Assembly (NCBI GenBank): GCA_964490365.1
Contig: CAZBAG010000001.1
Span: forward strand, 56,459-120,458
DNA length: 64,000 nt
Reading direction: 5' to 3'
DNA from: an uncultured Candidatus Saccharibacteria bacterium
GTDB lineage: Bacteria; Patescibacteriota; Minisyncoccia; Phycocordibacterales; CSBR16-119
Positions 8,915 through 56,597 of the stretch are shown in pieces. Position 1 is the stretch's first letter, and each line of letters starts with the position of its first letter. The position numbers and the translations under genes were made by a program. Under the pieces are notes generated by a model that saw only the letters and a list, made by a program, of their open reading frames with translations, was not told the origin of the DNA and searched no databases.

Positions 8915-10162
8915 ATGTTGACTGCACTACGCGTCGGTTTCTTTCTTGGAATACGTCAAATAAAGAGAGCTAATAAATGGACTACCGCACTCATTATCTT
9001 TATTATGATGCTCACATTTCTTAATCTTGTGGGTGTGTCCGGTATTTTAGTTGGTCTTATTGAGGGGTCAGTAAAAGCAAACCGCGAACAGTATAGTGGT
9101 AATGTACTCCTTACAACACCAAAAGGTGAGTCGTACATAGATGAGAGCGGAAGTATTCTAAGAACGATTGAAACAATTCCCGAAGTAGATACGTACACTG
9201 CTCGTTTTATTGAATCAGCAACGATTGAAGCAAACTATCGAACACGTCGTGATCCGGAAGCCTTGCGTGACAGCGTTGGTGCACAAGTTGCGGGTATTGA
9301 TATTCTTGAAGAAGACAGAGTGACAGGTATTTCCCAATATGTAACCGAGGGCGAATACTTAAATCCTGGTGACGACGAATATGTCCTCATGGGGGCGAAC
9401 ATGATTCAACGCTACGTGTCAGCTTTTGGCGAAGGATTTGATACACTCGACGATATTTTCCCTGGAACACGAATTCGTATTTCAGCAAATGGGAAAACAA
9501 AAGAGTATACCGTGAAGGGAATTATTGACAGTAAGGTTGATCAGACATCATTTCGCATTTTTATGACTGACAAAGAATTTATTCGCTTCTTTGATCGAAC
9601 AAGTCTCAATGTGAACGAAATTGCCGTGTTGGCACAAGAAGGTGTTTCTGAATCAACACTCAAAAATATTTTTGTCAGAAGTGGGTTTGCCGACGAGGCA
9701 AAAGTTCAAACCTCAGAAGAGGCGATTCCTCAATTTCTTACCGACATTAAGTTAGCATTTGCGCTTCTTGGGAACATTATTGGGGGTATTGGTATTATTG
9801 TCGCGTCGATTACGATCTTCATCATTATTTTCATCAATGCGATTACGCGTCGAAAGTATATTGGTATTTTGAAAGCGATTGGTATTGAGGCACGCTCAAT
9901 TCAGTTTGCATATATTTTCCAATCCTTATTCTATGCTGTTTCTGGGGCGTTGCTCGGCATGCTCATTCTATATGGAGTGATGGTTCCAGGCTTCGATGCA
10001 CACCCTATCGATTTTCCGTTCTCTGATGGTATTTTAGTTGCGCCGTTTGATAGCACGATGAGAAAATTCATACTTCTTCTTGTTGTTACTTTTTTTGCCG
10101 GCTTTATTCCTGCATCAATGATTATTAAGAAAAATACTCTCGACTCAATCTTAGGAAGATAA
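8915..10162 (+). CDS. ABC transporter permease, FtsX-like/MacB-type
   Basis: N-terminal TM, a large periplasmic domain, and three to four C-terminal TM helices in an FtsX-like fold. Confidence 0.7.
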   Translation: MLTALRVGFFLGIRQIKRANKWTTALIIFIMMLTFLNLVGVSGILVGLIEGSVKANREQYSGNVLLTTPKGESYIDESGSILRTIETIPEVDTYTARFIESATIEANYRTRRDPEALRDSVGAQVAGIDILEEDRVTGISQYVTEGEYLNPGDDEYVLMGANMIQRYVSAFGEGFDTLDDIFPGTRIRISANGKTKEYTVKGIIDSKVDQTSFRIFMTDKEFIRFFDRTSLNVNEIAVLAQEGVSESTLKNIFVRSGFADEAKVQTSEEAIPQFLTDIKLAFALLGNIIGGIGIIVASITIFIIIFINAITRRKYIGILKAIGIEARSIQFAYIFQSLFYAVSGALLGMLILYGVMVPGFDAHPIDFPFSDGILVAPFDSTMRKFILLLVVTFFAGFIPASMIIKKNTLDSILGR

Positions 10163-50938: not shown

Positions 50939-52303
50939 ATGTTCACAATTCATACTTCACAAAAAAATAATTTTTTCATAAAAAGCATCACACTTTTGCT
51001 CGTGGTGCTTTTTATGTGGACGTCAATTCCACAGGTACAAGCACAGCTTTCAGACGATGAACGAGCGGAACTTGAATCAGAACTAGCAGATCTTGAAAAA
51101 GAGATTAAAGCACAGGAGGCAATTTTATCTGGACAAAAGACTAAGTCTGCATCACTTCAACGAGATATTGCGCTATTGCAGGCTAAAATTACTGCAGCTA
51201 AATCAAAAATCCAGCAAAAAGATCTTCAAATCAAAAAAATTGGCAGTGAAATCAAGAATAAGAATGAGACTATTAATGATTTAAACGAAGATATTAATGC
51301 TGGTAAAGAATCACTCGCGCAACTCATTAAGAAGACCAATGAAATGGACTATGTAACGTTTACTCATGCAGTACTGAGTTCAGAATCAATCTCTGATTTT
51401 TATGGAGACATTAATACCTATTCATCACTGAAAAAATCGGTACAAGATTCAGTAAATCAAGTTCGCGGTGTCAAAGTTGAAACGGAAACAGTTAAGAAAC
51501 AGCTTGAAGTAAAACAAAACGAAGAAATTGATGCTAAAAAGGCAATCGAACAAGAAAAATCTACCGTAGAAAAAAGTGAAAAAGATCAAAAAACTCTTCT
51601 TTCAATCAGTAAAAACCAAGAAGCTGAGTATGCAAAAGTACTTGCTGATCGACAAGCAAAGGCCGCTGGTATTCGAGCAAAACTCTTCGAACTTCGAGGT
51701 CAAGGAGCTATTCCGTTTGGACAAGCATATGAATACGCAAAAGTTGCAAGTAAAGCAACAGGTGTGAGACCAGCATACATTTTGGCGATTTTGAAACAAG
51801 AATCAAATCTTGGTGCCAATGTTGGAACATGTAACAGGCCGGGAGATTCACGAACATGGAAAGATATTATGCCAGGACCTGATAGTGGTTCTTGGAGAGA
51901 TGATCAGTCAGCATTTCTCCGTATTACAAAAAAACTTGGCATGAGCGCGGACGGACAACCACTTTCATGTCCGCTTTCAACAGGTGGTTGGGGTGGGGCA
52001 ATGGGACCTTCTCAGTTTATTCCAACAACATGGGAAAGTTATGAAAATAGAGTTGCCGCGGCTGTTGGCGCAAGCGTAGCAAACCCTTGGAATCCTGCAC
52101 ACGCAGTAACTGCTACAGCGCTCTATGTGAAAGATTTAGGTGCAGCGGCTCAAACCTATACCGCAGAACGTGAAGCCGCGTGTAAATACTATTCAGGACG
52201 AGGATGTACTGCTCCAGGTGTTGTAAATGCCTTTTATGGTAATGCTGTGATGACGCACGCAACTGCTATTCAAAAAGACATTGATGTGTTGGAGAGCTTT
52301 TAG
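50939..52303 (+). CDS. secreted coiled-coil protein with a C-terminal lytic transglycosylase / lysozyme-like (SLT) domain
   Basis: Signal/TM segment, a coiled coil of about 250 aa, then the catalytic motifs AILKQESN and GAMGPSQFIPTTW. Start set at MFTIHTS to avoid overlap with rplY. Confidence 0.6.
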   Translation: MFTIHTSQKNNFFIKSITLLLVVLFMWTSIPQVQAQLSDDERAELESELADLEKEIKAQEAILSGQKTKSASLQRDIALLQAKITAAKSKIQQKDLQIKKIGSEIKNKNETINDLNEDINAGKESLAQLIKKTNEMDYVTFTHAVLSSESISDFYGDINTYSSLKKSVQDSVNQVRGVKVETETVKKQLEVKQNEEIDAKKAIEQEKSTVEKSEKDQKTLLSISKNQEAEYAKVLADRQAKAAGIRAKLFELRGQGAIPFGQAYEYAKVASKATGVRPAYILAILKQESNLGANVGTCNRPGDSRTWKDIMPGPDSGSWRDDQSAFLRITKKLGMSADGQPLSCPLSTGGWGGAMGPSQFIPTTWESYENRVAAAVGASVANPWNPAHAVTATALYVKDLGAAAQTYTAEREAACKYYSGRGCTAPGVVNAFYGNAVMTHATAIQKDIDVLESF

Positions 52304-52320
52304 TTGATATAAAAAAGAAG

Positions 52321-52348
52321 AAAGCCCGCACCGAAGGTGCGGGCTTTC
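52321..52348. terminator. terminator hairpin GCCCGCACC-gaag-GGTGCGGGC (copy 2, identical to 28493-28522)
   Basis: Exact 27-nt match to copy 1, AAAGCCCGCACCGAAGGTGCGGGCTTT. Confidence 0.8.
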
Positions 52349-52360
52349 TGATGAGGGTTC

Positions 52361-52753
52361 CTAGAACCATTCATCAGGGTCAGTCATGTTCCCCATATCG
52401 AGCTCAGCTAGAGCGAGCATTTTGCGCTCCTGAGCTTCTCGGTCAGCGTGATCTACCAACGCATGGTGTGATTCTTCTGGGTTAAGAATCTGATCTCCTC
52501 GATGAGCCGTCTCATGCATCCTACGGAAGAAGTTCTTCCTTCCGTGCGCACGATCGATGGCGTTCATGTCTTCCTCGTGTTCTTGCCAACGTTCCCTCGG
52601 GGTGAGGAAGTTGTTTACAAAATCCTCGTAGTCCTCATGAGCTTGTTCCGCTTCGGCAATTCCTTCTTGAAGTTCTTGTTCAGAGGTCATATGTTCGAGA
52701 GCAACCTCATCGTTCAAACGCTTGGTTTTATTGCGGTTGTATGTCCGTGCCAT
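52361..52753 (-). CDS. hypothetical acidic/His-rich protein (about 130 aa from MARTYNRNK), GC-richer patch
   Basis: ORF ending at the shared hairpin. Confidence 0.45.
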   Translation of the reverse strand: MARTYNRNKTKRLNDEVALEHMTSEQELQEGIAEAEQAHEDYEDFVNNFLTPRERWQEHEEDMNAIDRAHGRKNFFRRMHETAHRGDQILNPEESHHALVDHADREAQERKMLALAELDMGNMTDPDEWF

Positions 52754-52888
52754 AGTGTATATGGTTTGGTGTTTGTACTTGGTTCTTACATATAATATAG
52801 CATATTTAATACTTTTTGTCAATATTAGAGAATATGTTGATTTTAAGCCTTGTCAAAGAAAAACCCGTATGTTAATATCTCTTCTGTT

Positions 52889-53206: not shown

Positions 53207-54163
53207 ATGGAACTTAACTTCGAAGAATTAAAATCAAATCACAAGACAAGTTTTCTCGCATCTGAATACGAGCGTCTTGTGCGTGAGAAAGAATCGACAG
53301 AGCAAATGCTTCAAGACGACCCTTCAATGAAAGACATGATAGAAGAGGAGCTCAAGAATATGGATGTACAGATTGAAGGACTAAGAGCTCAGCTCGAAGC
53401 TATTGTTATATCAGAACGGGAAGAAGAAAAATTTCCGAATGAAATTATGCTCGAAGTCAGGGCAGGGGCAGGGGGCGATGAAGCTTCTTTGTTTGCATAT
53501 CAACTTGCCGAAATGTATCAACGGTTTGCAGAAAAGCAGGGTTGGCAATGGAAGACAGAATATGAATCAATGAACGATGTCGGCGGATACAAAGAAGCGG
53601 CGTTTGAAGTGAAAGGAAAAGATGTCTATAAAAAACTTCGTTTTGAAACAGGGGTACATCGAGTGCAACGAATTCCTGCTACTGAAAAGCAAGGCCGCAT
53701 TCACACCTCAACGGCGTCAGTTGCGGTTTTGCCACTCTACAAGAAAACAACAATTGTTTTGAATGAAGCAGATCTTGAATTCGAAACATCTCGTTCTGGT
53801 GGGGCAGGAGGGCAAAACGTAAACAAAGTTGAAACTGCGGTTCGTGTTATTCACAAGCCAACTGGCTTTGATGTTAGATCAACCTCTGAGCGAACTCAAT
53901 TAAAAAACAGAGAGAAAGCGCTTGAGCTATTGCGTTCACGATTACAACAAGCAAAAGATGACGAAGAGGCAAAAAAATATTCCGCAGACAGAGCTTCTCA
54001 AATTGGAACTGCAGATCGTTCAGAAAAAATTCGAACATACAATTTCCCACAAGACCGTTTAACTGATCATCGTATTAAGGAATCGTGGAGTAACTTGCCA
54101 TCGCTCATGCTTGGTAATATTGATTCAGTGATCCAAAGTTTTACAGAAGAATCAGCTTCGTGA
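53207..54163 (+). CDS. prfA: peptide chain release factor 1
   Basis: PAT tripeptide context ([17 protein letters not shown]) and GGQ motif ([17 protein letters not shown]). Confidence 0.85.
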
Positions 54164-54375
54164 TATAGTAGTAGCCAAGAGTGCACCTTTTTGTCTCACC
54201 GACAATGCGGAGGCGGTCAAACTCCTTAGGCCTCCGGTTAGTGTTTACTAACAAAAAGGAGATGTGCTATCTCAGGGAAGCACCCCTGGAGGGGCGGTCG
54301 TACAAAGGACCGCCCCTTAAAGTTTTTATATTGAAATTATTATCTATCTTTGGTATAGTATTTTTTGTCCAGTAC

Positions 54376-54420
54376 GCGCGTGTAGTAGAGCTCGTGGTGC
54401 GGGAAATCGACTGACTTCTT
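54376..54420 (+). other. decayed tRNA-Ile 5'-fragment (pseudo-tRNA)
   Basis: GCGCGTGTAG at 54376-54385 equals tRNA positions 1-10, and AATCGACTGA at 54405-54414 equals the anticodon-stem 5' side. The remainder is not tRNA-like. Confidence 0.5.
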
Positions 54421-54474
54421 ACAGAAGTGGTACACCTTTTGGATAATTTGTTTTTTACAATTTGTTAGTTTCGT

Positions 54475-54547
54475 GCGCGTGTAGCTCAGCTGGTAGAGCA
54501 ATCGACTGATACTCGGTAGGTCCCAGGTTCGACCCCTGGCACGCGCA
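54475..54547 (+). tRNA. tRNA-Ile (anticodon GAT)
   Basis: Hand-folded: acceptor GCGCGTG/CACGCGC, D-arm GCTC-AGCTGGTA-GAGC, anticodon stem ATCGA/TCGGT with loop CTGATAC, T-arm CCAGG-TTCGACC-CCTGG, discriminator A. Confidence 0.85.
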
Positions 54548-54614
54548 CGAAGTTCGTAAATTAAAACAAATTACCTCAAAAGGTTTTACGAAAGTGTCTG
54601 TACACTTTCTCACG

Positions 54615-54648
54615 CGATAGGTCCCAGGTAGGACCCCTGGCACGTGCA
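54615..54648 (+). repeat. direct repeat of the tRNA-Ile 3' portion, about 30 of 35 nt identical, with a degenerate T-loop
   Basis: GCGATAGGTCCCAGGTAGGACCCCTGGCACGTGCA here versus TCGGTAGGTCCCAGGTTCGACCCCTGGCACGCGCA in the tRNA. Confidence 0.6.
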
Positions 54649-54650
54649 CA

Positions 54651-54670
54651 AAACCCCTTGCGGGGTTTTG
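54651..54670 (+). terminator. intrinsic terminator (AAACCCC-ttgc-GGGGTTTT)
   Basis: Short GC stem with flanking A-run and T-run. Confidence 0.6.
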
Positions 54671-54722
54671 TGCTTTCTAAATTAGATATTCAAAAAGCCG
54701 GAATCCTGTGTGGATTCCGGCT

Positions 54723-55304
54723 CTAAGTTCTACGTTGTTTTCTCCACACAAGCCAAGGCTTGGGGAACTGTGGATTCGTGACATTCATGAGTTCAAAATG
54801 GAGATGTGGGCCAGTTGTGTGACCCGTCATTCCAACCCAACCAATGAGTTGTCCTTGTCGAACCCTTTCTCCTTTTGTCACATTCGTATTGCTCATGTGA
54901 CAGTAGAGGGCATAAACACCGAGGCGGTCTTTGATGATCACTCTAATACCAGAGGCACCCTTTCCCCACCCTGACGCAATCACTACTCCACTTGAGGAGG
55001 CGTAAATCGGTGTGCCGATCTCTTCCCTCATGTCGATTGCGTAGCGTTTCCCATCCCAGTGTGATGTCCCAAAAACAGATCCAGGTACCGGGTTTTTGTA
55101 GATGTCAGTAATTGTGACAGGGGTTTTTTCAACCTCGGTGACAAATTGTTCTGGTGCTACATCATTATTACCCGGAGAGTAAGACGATAGAAATCCTACA
55201 CAAAAGAATATTGCCACTAGGGGCAGTATCAATTTGTGAATCTCGTCTCTTTGTTTGGTATGCCTTACAAAATGCCTTCGTCTTATCTTAGGCATTTTTT
55301 GCAA
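54723..55304 (-). CDS. M23 family metallopeptidase (LytM-like)
   Basis: HxxxD (SHWDGKRYAID) and HLH (GPHLHFEL) motifs. GC-richer than the window average. Confidence 0.8.
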   Translation of the reverse strand: MQKMPKIRRRHFVRHTKQRDEIHKLILPLVAIFFCVGFLSSYSPGNNDVAPEQFVTEVEKTPVTITDIYKNPVPGSVFGTSHWDGKRYAIDMREEIGTPIYASSSGVVIASGWGKGASGIRVIIKDRLGVYALYCHMSNTNVTKGERVRQGQLIGWVGMTGHTTGPHLHFELMNVTNPQFPKPWLVWRKQRRT

Positions 55305-56412
55305 GGAGTTTACGCATTGCTTCGAGTCTACTGATATTCTCCATCACTTGCCGAGAGAATTCTGTTTCTTCAGGCAAGGAAATGCCCGAAGCAGATGCAT
55401 AGAGGTTTGCCCACCAGTGAATACTGTTAGGACTCTTGTTTAGGGCATAATGCTCTGCTATGCGTCCGTAGTTGTAGGCTCGTTGCGTAACCTCTGTCGG
55501 ACTAACTACAAGCGTCTCACCCAGTTTTCTGCTCACGACGCTTAATCGTTCGCGCTCCTCTTGTTGACTCAACCCAGTTGGGAGAGTGACAATACTTGCA
55601 AGAACGATAAGCTTGTCATGCTTACCAAGCTTATCTGGTAACATACCGAGGTTGTTACTGTAGCGCTTGAGGTGAGCAAGAGCCTTTTTGAGTTCTTCGT
55701 CAGAGACTCGCTCAGGACTCACTTTCTGCTCGTCGAGCACTGTCACGTCAACAGGACTGTCCTGCGGTTCTTGATTGAGATCGCCAGCATCTTGAGATGT
55801 GAACGGGCTAACCACCACGTCTTCAGCAACAACCGGTTCCAATTGTTCAACCTCGCGGTGAGAATCTGTATCTTCACTCACGAAAACCCCGAAGACCTTG
55901 CCGGACCAGATGGCTATTGTCACGATAATGATTACCGCAACTGCAACAAGCCAATTCTTTTTTAACCAAGTCTTAAGACCACTTTCTTCTTCTTCTTCTT
56001 CTTCTTCTTGAGCCTCAGAACCTTTGGTGTTAGCTGCGTAATTCTTTCCTTGCTCGAAGCCTTCGTTGTGGGCATCTTTCTGGACCTTCACCGCAAACTC
56101 CATCGCTTCTTTTGCGCTGGCAAAGCCATCACTTCTAGAAGATGGTTGCTTGGTTTCAGAGAATTTGCCAGGGATAGTTTGGATATCCTCAGCACCTCCG
56201 CGAAAACCTCCTTGTGGGATAGGCTCGCCGCCATGTCCACAACAGGGAACACTTATAGTTTCTTTGAATACAAGGTTTCCTTTCGGGTCAATGATCTCTG
56301 TGTGATAGTATCCGGGCGCTCTTTGTACTGGCTTAGTCGCACGCTCAGTAAGGGCGTCTGCCAAAGCATCTGTTGGTTTTTCTTGTCCTGGGTTTTTTGT
56401 TGTTCCTGACAT
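55288..56412 (-). CDS. hypothetical membrane protein (374 aa; central TM; poly-Glu tract), GC-richer
   Basis: ORF overlapping the M23 gene start by 17 nt, which indicates an operon. Confidence 0.55.
   Translation of the reverse strand: MSGTTKNPGQEKPTDALADALTERATKPVQRAPGYYHTEIIDPKGNLVFKETISVPCCGHGGEPIPQGGFRGGAEDIQTIPGKFSETKQPSSRSDGFASAKEAMEFAVKVQKDAHNEGFEQGKNYAANTKGSEAQEEEEEEEESGLKTWLKKNWLVAVAVIIIVTIAIWSGKVFGVFVSEDTDSHREVEQLEPVVAEDVVVSPFTSQDAGDLNQEPQDSPVDVTVLDEQKVSPERVSDEELKKALAHLKRYSNNLGMLPDKLGKHDKLIVLASIVTLPTGLSQQEERERLSVVSRKLGETLVVSPTEVTQRAYNYGRIAEHYALNKSPNSIHWWANLYASASGISLPEETEFSRQVMENISRLEAMRKLLAKNA
55984..56007. repeat. (TTC)8 / (GAA)8 trinucleotide microsatellite inside the CDS (encodes E8)
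   Basis: Eight perfect tandem TTC units on the plus strand. Confidence 0.8.
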
Positions 56413-56597
56413 TGTCAGTGTGTTTTTGGTTCTTGTGTAAAAGGACTATTCTCGACTCGCATATTAACATATTTAATCCAAAAAGTCAAGTAATATACGA
56501 ACCCTCTGATAAGTCAAAATACCAAGAAAATAAAGGGTTTTGTACTTGATTATTTGTGTGATACTATGAGGTTGACTCGGTAGGGTCTTTTTACGTT

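What the first reader, a model, noticed from the sequence alone, without database searches (positions are those of the whole stretch)
54376..56590. Decayed copies of tRNA-Ile flanking the intact gene, next to a GC-rich two-gene block: footprint of tRNA-targeted integration or tandem duplication
A 5' fragment (GCGCGTGTAG...AATCGACTGA) lies 100 nt upstream of tRNA-Ile(GAT). A roughly 30/35-identical copy of its 3' end sits 67 nt downstream. A further ACTCGGTAGG match (tRNA positions 36-46) occurs at 56575-56584, which is the far side of the GC-rich block at 54723-56412 carrying the M23 peptidase and the 374-aa membrane protein. tRNA 3'-end direct repeats are the classic signature of integrase-mediated island insertion. 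The GC-rich block may be the decayed cargo of such an island. Alternatively the tRNA region underwent tandem duplications.
Basis: partly seen in the sequence, partly recalled or inferred. Interest (0 to 1): 0.55.

Follow-up and report, generated by a model that had tools for sequence, protein, structure and literature searches.

The report
A tRNA gene nested inside a dead tRNA
The two "decayed copies" are the 5' and 3' halves of an older tRNA-Ile gene that was split in its anticodon loop by a 197-base insert carrying a complete working tRNA-Ile, an arrangement shared with related candidate-phyla bacteria and not the footprint of a genomic island.

Summary
The tRNA-like fragments are real and far beyond chance. 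The distal 10-mer is a chance match. The GC-rich block is real but unrelated to the fragments.

The fragments are complementary halves of one tRNA-Ile(GAU): nt 1-35 upstream (54376-54414) and nt 37-73 downstream (54612-54648). Between them lies a 197-nt insert (54415-54611). It consists of a small hairpin, a 47-nt leader, the intact tRNA-Ile (54475-54547), a trailer that pairs with the leader, and a second hairpin. The only strong promoter lies upstream of the outer 5' half, and the only terminator follows the outer 3' half.

The same nest sits at the same prfA-tRNA-M23-atp locus in at least three other Patescibacteria assemblies (L006, L101, L096). Partly collapsed forms occur in L093, L105 and L008. 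Fully simple forms occur in close relatives (L003/4, L084/L102, L109).

The outer halves behave as pseudo-exons: their D arm and T loop are wrecked, they decay differently in each lineage, and they are occasionally gene-converted. Leader and trailer are conserved far above neutral sites.

The break point, 35/36, is the site typical of Patescibacteria tRNA group I introns, but no group I core is detectable.

Nested tRNA-Thr genes in two unrelated relatives show the process recurs. How the nest arose is unresolved.

The parts
54331..54359 (+). Promoter of the whole unit: TTGAAA, 17-nt spacer, TGgTATAGT. It ends 16 nt before the outer 5' half.
   Evidence: Promoter scan scores 10/12 with an extended -10. 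The same TTGAAAT...TGGTATAgT element precedes the outer half or the simple tRNA in every relative read.
54376..54414 (+). Outer 5' half (pseudo-exon). It holds tRNA-Ile nt 1-10, a wrecked D-arm region with 4 extra nt, then nt 26-35 (AATCGACTGA). It ends after anticodon nt A35.
   Evidence: Alignment to the tRNA. A homologous segment is present in L006, L101, L096 and L105.
54415..54427 (+). hp1: small hairpin CTTCT-tac-AGAAG at the left end of the insert.
   Evidence: Fold of the window strand. The sequence is invariant in the window, L006, L101, L105 and L086.
54428..54474 (+). Leader: the 5' strand of the long helix that carries the inner tRNA.
   Evidence: Inverted repeats I1/I2. Minimum-free-energy fold and RNAalifold consensus. 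hp1 plus leader is 55/60 identical to L006 although 4-fold sites are 43% identical.
54475..54547 (+). Inner, intact tRNA-Ile(GAU), the working gene. No CCA is encoded.
   Evidence: ARAGORN. Rfam tRNA at 69.3 bits. It is 73/73 identical in L006 and L101.
54548..54589 (+). Trailer: the 3' strand of the long helix.
   Evidence: One C-G to U-A double change next to the tRNA.
54590..54609 (+). hp2: hairpin GAAAGTGT-ctgt-ACACTTTC near the right end of the insert.
   Evidence: 100% of cells are paired in 5 sequences, with one double change.
54612..54648 (+). Outer 3' half (pseudo-exon): tRNA nt 37-73. The T loop is mutated (TTCGACC to TAGGACC) and there is a G3:U70 pair in the outer acceptor helix.
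   Evidence: Homologues are present in L006, L101, L096 and L093.
54646..54680 (+). Intrinsic terminator of the unit: a 12-bp stem GCACAAAACCCC/GGGGTTTTGTGC followed by a T-rich tail. It overlaps the end of the outer 3' half.
   Evidence: Perfect inverted repeat I6 and fold. The terminator scan did not list it. The same position is occupied by a terminator in all relatives.
54723..56412 (-). GC-rich two-gene block (M23 peptidase 54723-55304, 374-aa protein 55288-56412). It is a neighbour, not part of the tRNA feature.
   Evidence: It is syntenic and equally GC-rich in relatives.
56575..56584 (+). Distal 10-mer ACTCGGTAGG: a chance match inside the atp operon 5' UTR hairpin. Not part of the feature.

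Best explanation
This is a nested tRNA gene.

An older tRNA-Ile(GAU) gene was interrupted in its anticodon loop. The break falls after A35. Nucleotide 36 reads C on both sides, so the break is at 35/36 or 36/37.

The interruption is a 197-nt insert that brings a complete tRNA-Ile(GAU). That tRNA sits on top of a roughly 40-bp leader:trailer helix. The helix is flanked by one small hairpin at each end of the insert.

Shown:
- the nested anatomy;
- a single strong promoter before the outer 5' half and a single terminator after the outer 3' half;
- conservation of the architecture in other species;
- decay of the outer halves.

Inferred:
- One transcript runs through everything. RNase P cuts out the inner tRNA at its 5' end, and RNase Z or exonucleases plus the CCA-adding enzyme finish its 3' end.
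- The outer halves are non-functional pseudo-exons. They survive because they are short, lie inside the transcription unit, and are intermittently gene-converted by the inner gene.
- The leader:trailer helix and hairpins are kept by selection, most likely as a processing or folding stalk for the embedded tRNA.
- Because the outer and inner halves are direct repeats about 100 nt apart, recombination between them collapses the nest stepwise back to an ordinary tRNA gene. That explains the half-collapsed and simple alleles in relatives.

The event that created the nest is not resolved. It could be a self-inserting tRNA cassette, a degenerate intron that hosts a tRNA, or a template switch.
For: Anatomy:
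- The halves are complementary, nt 1-35 and nt 37-73.
- The flanks of the inner tRNA are inverted repeats.
- The fold gives outer helix, hp1, long stem with cloverleaf, and hp2, with z = -5.9.
- RNAalifold on four nests gives the same structure.

Transcription unit: promoter 54331-54359; terminator hairpin 54646-54673.

Not an assembly artefact: two Logan assemblies are identical as far as they reach, ending at 54503 inside the inner tRNA. Homologous nests are found in L006, L101 and L096 from independent assemblies.

Intermediates:
- L093: promoter, tRNA, trailer, hp2, 3' half.
- L105: 5' half, hp1, leader, tRNA, terminator.
- L007/L108: tRNA plus the start of the trailer.
- L102/L084: a simple tRNA flanked by exactly the outer gene's flanks.

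Phylogeny: nest and simple forms are interleaved on the prfA tree.

Outer halves are dead:
- The joined window halves give no tRNA with ARAGORN at the default threshold.
- T-loop changes are lineage-specific: TAGGACC in the window, TGGGGCC in L096 and L101.
- L006 has an inner-like T arm while its close relative L101 does not, which indicates gene conversion.

Constraint on the insert:
- hp1 plus leader is 60/60 and trailer plus hp2 62/64 identical between L006 and L101, where 4-fold sites are 80% identical.
- The same segments are 55/60 and 55/64 identical between the window and L006, where 4-fold sites are 43% identical.

Flank complementarity is specific to inserted tRNAs: across 78 tRNAs the median duplex energy equals the control, except for the nested ones.
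Against: - There is no expression or processing data.
- The covariation statistics for the leader:trailer helix are weak. Only 4 pairs show double changes across 7 partly incomplete sequences, and 16/500 shuffles reach the covariation score.
- A thermodynamic test of the idea that the helix insulates the inner cloverleaf from the outer halves showed almost no effect: probability 0.015 native against 0.012-0.013 with leader or trailer shuffled.
- The outer acceptor helix is intact in all four nests, with one compensatory change. That could mean it is selected rather than merely gene-converted.
- L003/L004, the closest relatives on the prfA tree, carry a different tRNA-Ile variant in the outer position. 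So loss by simple collapse does not explain every simple allele. Gain or replacement by recombination between lineages must also occur.
Confidence: 0.75

Rival explanations
1. Integrase-mediated genomic island. The GC-rich M23/membrane-protein block is the decayed cargo of an element that integrated at the tRNA-Ile 3' end, and the tRNA fragments are its att repeats.
For: The block is compositionally odd, 47% against 39% GC, and lies next to a tRNA. Its gene content and the size of the M23 protein vary among relatives. It is absent between prfA and atp in the more distant L011.
Against: - The 38-nt 3' repeat is proximal to the block, not distal.
- The distal match is a chance 10-mer that is not conserved.
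- There is no integrase domain or free space for one.
- The block, with the same GC excess, is present in relatives with simple and with nested tRNAs alike.
- The 5' half upstream is not explained by this model.
Confidence: 0.03
2. Tandem triplication of a roughly 100-nt tRNA unit, followed by decay of the 3' half of copy 1 and the 5' half of copy 3.
For: The start-to-start spacings of 99 and 101 nt are nearly equal.
Against: - The supposedly decayed halves show no residual similarity, about 5/38 position matches by eye, while the retained halves are 76-100% identical.
- The two retained halves meet at the same anticodon position.
- The 'decayed' parts are complementary to each other and conserved between species.
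- The equal spacing follows automatically from a symmetric insert placed in the middle of the tRNA.
Confidence: 0.04
3. The outer gene is a live, intron-containing tRNA. Its intervening sequence, a group I or other intron that happens to host a tRNA, is spliced out.
For: - The break is at the 35/36 site where Patescibacteria tRNA group I introns cluster (PMC13011429).
- Divergent introns can escape RF00028 (same paper).
- In L079 an outer tRNA-Thr with the same kind of insert is a perfect cloverleaf.
Against: - For this window, the outer D arm and T loop are destroyed and the joined halves are not recognised as a tRNA.
- The joined anticodon would read GAC, not GAT.
- The 5' exon ends in A or C rather than U, and the insert ends in C rather than G.
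- There is no group I hit even at E<=10 on 541 nt.
- Only about 123 nt of non-tRNA insert are available, too few for a catalytic core.
Confidence: 0.03
4. The whole nest is a selected precursor scaffold. The outer acceptor helix plus the T-like hairpin and the leader:trailer stalk are kept because they direct 5'/3' trimming or stabilise the precursor. On this view the outer halves are functional RNA, though not a tRNA.
For: - The outer acceptor helix pairs in all four nests, with one U-A to C-G double change and otherwise only G.U substitutions.
- Leader and trailer are strongly conserved.
- AATCGACTGA plus hp1 is invariant in five lineages.
Against: - Relatives do well without any of it (L003, L084, L102, L109, L113).
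- The T arm is broken in L101, the whole 5' side is lost in L093, and the 3' side is lost in L105.
- Gene conversion from the inner gene can explain the preserved acceptor strands.
Confidence: 0.15

Closest known systems
Group I introns at anticodon-loop position 35/36 of Patescibacteria tRNA genes (Nakagawa et al. 2026, PMC13011429)
   Same: Same phylum. The gene is interrupted at the same place, in the anticodon loop at 35/36. Close relatives show presence/absence polymorphism with precise empty sites.
   Different: - No group I core is detectable.
- The exon ends in A or C, not U, and the insert ends in C, not G.
- The insert is about 123 nt of non-tRNA sequence plus a whole tRNA.
- The interrupted gene is dead and the insert carries its replacement.
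- Ile(GAU) is not among the tRNAs reported with introns there (Asn, Asp, Tyr, Met, Phe, Thr).
tRNA gene fragments left by integrative elements (att repeats; e.g. van der Gulik et al. 2023, PMC9897764)
   Same: Partial, non-functional tRNA copies lie next to an intact gene of the same identity. The incoming DNA restores the disrupted gene.
   Different: - There are fragments on both sides, 5' and 3', not only a 3' repeat.
- They are about 60 nt from the gene rather than kilobases away.
- There is no integrase and no cargo.
- The 'element' is essentially just the tRNA and a helix.
Disrupted tRNA genes of Archaea (multiple-intron, split and permuted tRNAs; reviews PMC4390854, PMC4033280)
   Same: tRNA genes are interrupted in the anticodon or D loops by short structured inserts. 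Complementary sequences bring the halves together. In L067 and L086 the outer gene carries two inserts.
   Different: This is bacterial. No bulge-helix-bulge motif or splicing endonuclease is known here. The outer gene in this window is a pseudogene rather than a gene that is reassembled.
rRNA-operon processing stalks (long leader:trailer helices cut by RNase III; textbook knowledge, not tested here)
   Same: A stable RNA gene sits at the tip of a long helix formed by its 5' and 3' flanks within one transcript.
   Different: This is not known as a feature of bacterial tRNA genes. In these genomes only the nested tRNAs have it. No cleavage has been shown.

Membership tests
tRNA-targeted genomic island (tyrosine-integrase att sites) | Integrase gene or remnant next to the tRNA | tested here: not met
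   The ORFs between the tRNA and the atp operon are an M23 peptidase and a 374-aa protein with no family. No integrase domain is found, and the block is fully occupied by these two genes.
tRNA-targeted genomic island (tyrosine-integrase att sites) | Direct repeat of the tRNA 3' segment at the far end of the island | tested here: not met
   The 38-nt repeat is on the near side (54612-54649). The far-side match is a 10-mer at chance frequency, 3 observed against 3.5 expected in the window, and is not conserved.
tRNA-targeted genomic island (tyrosine-integrase att sites) | Island present or absent among relatives in step with the repeats | tested here: not met
   The block is present and equally GC-rich in relatives with a simple tRNA (L003, L102) and with a nested tRNA (L006, L101).
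Group I intron-containing tRNA gene (Patescibacteria type) | Interruption inside the anticodon loop (35/36) | tested here: met
   The outer 5' half ends at A35 and the outer 3' half starts at A37, with a C on both sides.
Group I intron-containing tRNA gene (Patescibacteria type) | Group I catalytic core detectable by covariance model | tested here: not met
   No RF00028 match at E<=10 on 6 kb or on 541 nt with lax filters. Caveat: divergent Patescibacteria introns escape RF00028 (PMC13011429), and the tFind model was not available.
Group I intron-containing tRNA gene (Patescibacteria type) | [quoted passage not shown] | tested here: not met
   The sequence reads ...CTGA|C...CTC|AC.
Group I intron-containing tRNA gene (Patescibacteria type) | Joined exons give a canonical tRNA with the expected anticodon | tested here: not met
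   ARAGORN finds no gene in the joined window halves at the default threshold. At the 80% threshold it calls a 'Val-GAC'.
Tandem tRNA gene array or duplication | Head-to-tail whole units with homologous spacers | tested here: not met
   Only complementary halves are repeated. The intervening 60 and 63 nt are unrelated to tRNA sequence and pair with each other.
tRNA pseudogene or gene fragment | Clear homology to a functional tRNA, loss of invariant features, and lineage-specific decay | tested here: met
   The D arm is disrupted and T-loop positions U55 and C56 are changed. The lesions differ between the window, L096/L101 and L093.
Archaeal-type (bulge-helix-bulge) tRNA intron | 3-nt bulge, 4-bp helix, 3-nt bulge at the two junctions, plus a splicing endonuclease | not tested
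   Examined only by eye. The junctions lie in a multiloop next to hp1 and hp2, and no motif search or EndA search was run.

The most novel reading that the evidence does not exclude
The window shows an old, decayed example of an undescribed process in Patescibacteria. A small structured cassette lands in the anticodon loop (35/36) or D loop of a tRNA gene and carries a replacement tRNA of the same identity.

Independent nests exist for tRNA-Thr(UGU):
- In L079 the outer gene is still a perfect cloverleaf.
- In L067 one insert with a tRNA sits in the D loop, and an 'empty' hairpin sits at 35/36.
- L086 shows the same two-insert layout for tRNA-Ile at a different locus.

If the cassette is mobile, this would be a new kind of selfish element. 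If the outer tRNA of young nests is rescued by removing the insert at the RNA level, this would be a new kind of bacterial tRNA intron that hosts a tRNA.
Probability: 0.12. Interest if true: 0.85.

Novelty: new variant of a known kind. Interest (0 to 1): 0.58.

Why it matters
- Annotation. tRNA finders report only the inner gene, and pseudogene or fragment filters would treat the halves as island scars. Nests like this are silently missed or misread as att sites.
- Genome evolution. The locus documents how an essential, probably single-copy tRNA gene in a minimal genome can be disrupted and replaced in one step. Built-in direct repeats then erase the scar, which produces presence/absence polymorphism between close relatives.
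- RNA processing. The insert's leader:trailer helix and terminal hairpins are conserved well above neutral sites. This points to an unrecognised processing or folding requirement.
- Link to known introns. The break point coincides with the phylum's characteristic intron site (35/36), and the pattern recurs in tRNA-Thr. A link between tRNA introns and tRNA gene turnover in these bacteria therefore becomes directly testable.

Tried and rejected
- The first metagenome scan, with a leader-plus-tRNA pattern, found nothing. A second scan with the 60-nt tRNA core gave 18 loci.
- Two viral-contig scans, one for the hp1-leader block and one for the tRNA core, found nothing. There is no sign of a phage origin.
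- Rfam was run at E<=10 on 6 kb and on 541 nt. It found no group I intron, ribozyme or other family in the insert.
- ARAGORN with intron search over all loci was mostly noise: long false introns built on real 3' halves. It did recover the L079 outer tRNA-Thr with a 119-nt insert and the L093 hybrid.
- Insulation hypothesis (the leader:trailer helix protects the inner cloverleaf from mispairing with the outer halves): the partition-function test showed no meaningful effect.
- Origin by two partial tandem duplications, or by self-insertion of the gene with its own flanks, was rejected. The sequences outside the outer halves (promoter and terminator) are unrelated to leader and trailer.
- Small ORFs overlapping the region on either strand were dismissed. 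An indel between L003 and L004 breaks the frame upstream, and the minus-strand ORFs merely read through the tRNA.
- Literature searches for nested or embedded tRNA genes in bacteria returned nothing relevant.
Full report
**What is in the sequence**

The window is from a Patescibacteria (CPR, Paceibacteria-like) genome; the nearest public relatives are MAGs so labelled. Downstream of prfA (53207-54163) ARAGORN and Rfam find one tRNA-Ile(GAU) at 54475-54547/8, scoring 69 bits.

- 54376-54414 matches tRNA nt 1-25 at 19/25, then has 4 extra bases, then matches nt 26-35 at 10/10.
- 54612-54649 matches nt 37-74 at 33/38.
- Their local alignment scores are 29 and 51. The null maxima in 3000 shuffles are 26 and 31, and the maximum over 845 other tiles of the window is 22.

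The distal 10-mer at 56575-56584 exists but is chance.
- Matches to any 10-mer of the tRNA occur 3 times elsewhere in the window against 3.5 expected.
- The homologous atp 5' UTR of L006 does not carry it.

The two fragments are not arbitrary pieces. One stops at anticodon nt A35 and the other starts at A37, so together they make one tRNA split in the anticodon loop. Position 36 reads C on both sides, so the break is at 35/36 or 36/37.

The sequences between the fragments and the intact gene are inverted repeats of each other (54437-54481 against 54540-54580). Folding 54366-54680 gives four elements:
- a closing helix between the outer ends;
- a small hairpin, hp1 (54414-54428);
- a roughly 40-bp leader:trailer helix with the intact cloverleaf at its tip;
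- a second hairpin, hp2 (54590-54609).

The fold has z = -5.9.

The only strong promoter (TTGAAA-17-TGgTATAGT, 54331-54359) ends 16 nt before the outer 5' half. A 12-bp terminator hairpin (54646-54673) starts inside the end of the outer 3' half. A second, 9/12 match (CTTACA-18-GATAAT, 54418-54447) lies inside the leader.

The simplest reading is an older tRNA-Ile gene, with its promoter and terminator, that received a 197-nt insert (54415-54611) containing a complete tRNA-Ile.

**Related genomes**

A prfA-anchored scan of one genome per species gave 80 loci. A scan of metagenomes with the tRNA core gave 18 more. Look-ups of prfA homologues gave 14 more. In the clade with prfA at 78% identity or more, the tRNA-Ile sits at the same place, between prfA and a minus-strand M23 peptidase gene and the atp operon.

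The states found by reading the sequences are:
- Full nest: window, L006, L101 and L096. In L096 part of the 5' side is deleted.
- 5' side collapsed: L093 (promoter, tRNA, trailer, hp2, outer 3' half). A 28-nt GC hairpin is inserted in the dead T arm.
- 3' side lost: L105-107 (outer 5' half with a roughly 100-nt expansion, hp1, leader, tRNA, terminator).
- Leader and trailer retained with a very decayed 5' half: L008. The contig ends shortly after the tRNA.
- tRNA plus the start of the trailer: L007 and L108.
- Simple gene: L003/4, L084, L102-104, L109-114. In L102 and L084 the simple tRNA carries exactly the 5' and 3' flanks of the outer gene of their close relatives L006 and L101.

On a prfA tree, nested and simple states are interleaved. 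Three close pairs differ: window against L003/4, L006/L101 against L084/L102, and L008 against L109. Two Logan assemblies from other samples are identical to the window through the outer half and leader. Both break at 54503, inside the inner tRNA. The nest is therefore not an assembly artefact.

**Dead outer halves, constrained insert**

Joining the window's outer halves gives nothing ARAGORN recognises at the default threshold. The D arm is replaced, T-loop U55 and C56 are changed, and the joined anticodon would be GAC.

The damage is lineage-specific. The T loop reads TAGGACC in the window and TGGGGCC in L096 and L101, and the T stem is broken in L101.

L006 and L101 are close relatives, 80% identical at 4-fold sites. 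Yet L006 has an inner-like T arm where L101 has the decayed one. This is the signature of gene conversion from the inner copy.

The non-tRNA parts of the insert are conserved well above neutral sites:
- hp1 plus leader 60/60 and trailer plus hp2 62/64 between L006 and L101;
- 55/60 and 55/64 between the window and L006, whose 4-fold sites are only 43% identical.

The outer D-arm region diverges much faster (32/44). The conservation is therefore not simply recent transfer of the whole unit.

Structure counts support hp2 and the helix next to the tRNA: 87.8% of cells are paired and 4 pairs have double changes. The statistics are weak with seven partly incomplete sequences. RNAalifold on four nests keeps the outer acceptor helix in all four, with one U-A to C-G double change. 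I cannot tell selection from gene conversion there.

Complementary flanks are not a general property of tRNA genes in these genomes. Across 78 tRNAs the median flank duplex energy equals the control. The outliers are the nested or inserted ones.

**How it most likely works**

One transcript runs from the outer promoter to the terminator. The embedded tRNA is released by the ordinary 5' and 3' tRNA processing enzymes, and CCA is added afterwards because none is encoded. The outer halves are pseudo-exons.

The leader:trailer stalk and terminal hairpins are under constraint, plausibly as a processing or folding device. My one test of a specific idea, that the helix insulates the cloverleaf from the repeated halves, showed no effect. 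The reason for the constraint is therefore open.

The direct repeats formed by outer and inner halves (20-37 nt, about 100 nt apart) provide a ready route to stepwise, precise collapse. This matches the intermediates seen.

Collapse cannot be the whole story. L003/4 carry a different tRNA-Ile variant in the outer position. Allele replacement between lineages probably also occurs.

**The island and tandem readings**

The GC-rich block is real: 47% against 39%, in the top 0.3% of windows. The syntenic block is equally GC-rich (44-49%) in every relative checked, whatever the state of the tRNA. It contains no integrase. It is not bracketed by the tRNA repeat.

A tandem triplication would need complete erasure of one half of each flanking copy and near-perfect retention of the other. 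It would also need both break points to fall at the anticodon, and the erased parts to become mutually complementary and conserved. I reject it.

**Comparison with what is known**

The break point coincides with the 35/36 site at which group I introns of Patescibacteria tRNA genes cluster (Nakagawa et al. 2026, PMC13011429). The insert nevertheless fails the tests for such an intron:
- there is no RF00028 hit, even at E<=10 on 541 nt;
- the exon does not end in U and the insert does not end in G;
- only about 123 nt of non-tRNA sequence are available;
- the joined exons do not make a tRNA.

That paper notes that divergent introns escape RF00028, so an intron ancestry is not excluded.

tRNA fragments left by integrative elements (PMC9897764) resemble the 3' half only. 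I found no report of a bacterial tRNA gene nested in another.

**The phenomenon recurs**

I scanned the 81 tRNAs called in the loci held at that point for flanking partial copies. This turned up nested tRNA-Thr(UGU) genes in unrelated Paceibacteria.
- L079: a sequence-distinct and fully canonical outer tRNA-Thr is interrupted in the anticodon loop by CCAG-CCCCGTAGC...[inner tRNA-Thr]...GCTACTGGGG. The break is at 34/35 or 35/36, which is ambiguous because of a repeated G.
- L067: an outer tRNA-Thr carries a tRNA-bearing insert in the D loop and an 'empty' 39-nt hairpin at the same anticodon position.
- L086: a tRNA-Ile locus in a different genomic context. It has the same two-insert layout, and its hp1-leader block is nearly identical to the window's.

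Something in these genomes repeatedly places a tRNA, flanked by inverted repeats, inside a tRNA gene of the same identity. Whether that is a mobile cassette, an intron lineage that hosts tRNAs, or template switching during replication cannot be decided with the data at hand.

**Verdict**

The fragments and the GC block are real, and the 10-mer is chance.
The fragments are decayed tRNA-Ile copies, but they are neither island att sites nor tandem copies.
- The feature is a nested tRNA gene with decaying pseudo-exons and a conserved structured spacer. It is a new variant among disrupted tRNA genes.
- It is of moderate to good interest, mainly because it is conserved, polymorphic and recurrent, and because it sits at the phylum's characteristic intron site.

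Noticed in passing
window 54170-54328 (+): A conserved non-coding block of about 150 nt lies between the prfA stop and the tRNA promoter. It has its own promoter-like site (54140-54169) and terminator (54289-54318), and invariant motifs AAAAAGGAGAUG and GGGAAGCACCCC. RNAalifold on 8 relatives gives 27 pairs, 17 with compensatory changes. There is no Rfam match. An indel between L003 and L004 rules out an ORF. It is a candidate undescribed small RNA or 3' UTR element. It is absent in L005, L006, L093, L096 and L101.
   Followed up: partly
window 54723-56412 (-), and the syntenic blocks in L003, L006, L101, L102, L105, L007: The M23 peptidase / membrane-protein block is GC-rich (44-49% against 36-41%) in every relative, yet it evolves very fast. 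M23 is about 50% and the membrane protein about 28% identical where prfA is 92% identical. The M23 protein ranges from 193 aa (window) to 520-572 aa (L101, L109, L113). It is an old, hypervariable, compositionally distinct cell-wall module.
   Followed up: partly
L079 7530-7762; L067 8955-9165: Nested tRNA-Thr(UGU) genes. In L079 a canonical outer tRNA-Thr has a 119-nt anticodon-loop insert holding a second tRNA-Thr, and a possible third, outermost remnant (GCCGCCTTAGC) lies upstream. In L067 an outer tRNA-Thr has a tRNA-bearing insert in the D loop plus an empty 39-nt hairpin in the anticodon loop.
   Followed up: partly
L030 ~7857, L041 ~7775, L048 ~7861, L076 ~7454 (minus strand of the loci): The hairpin GCCTG-CCCCGTAGC-loop-GCTACCGGGG also found in the L067 tRNA-Thr insert occurs, in antisense orientation, just upstream of tsf. 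There the RBS and the first roughly 12 codons of tsf (MAV.DEL.KQLRD) are duplicated on either side of it. The layout is old start, hairpin, new start.
   Followed up: no
L016 3035-3180; L044 7777-7883; L066 9100-9135: Other debris lies next to tRNA-Thr genes: two tandem decayed 70-nt tRNA-like repeats (L016), a second aberrant tRNA-like gene (L044), and an isolated 3'-end copy (L066).
   Followed up: no
L101 5400-5560; L102 4640-4830; L005 7150-7300: In one subclade a further decayed tRNA-Ile 3' half plus a trailer copy lies downstream of the unit's terminator. It is preceded by an inverted copy of the T-arm sequence (CCAGGGGTCGAA). This indicates at least a second round of partial duplication at the locus.
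   Followed up: no
L105 5006-5878 (also L106, L107): A class A beta-lactamase-like gene (PF13354) is inserted between prfA and the tRNA-Ile unit in one lineage only.
   Followed up: no
L048 ~8950-9200: An ORF that looked GIY-YIG nuclease-like by eye lies directly upstream of a tRNA-Thr gene. It was not checked against any protein family library.
   Followed up: no
window 51600-52800: A second local GC rise (44.5-49%) covers the 3' end of the SLT-domain gene and a 153-aa minus-strand ORF (52361-52822). That ORF has no convincing family and is poorly conserved in relatives (37-52% identity).
   Followed up: no
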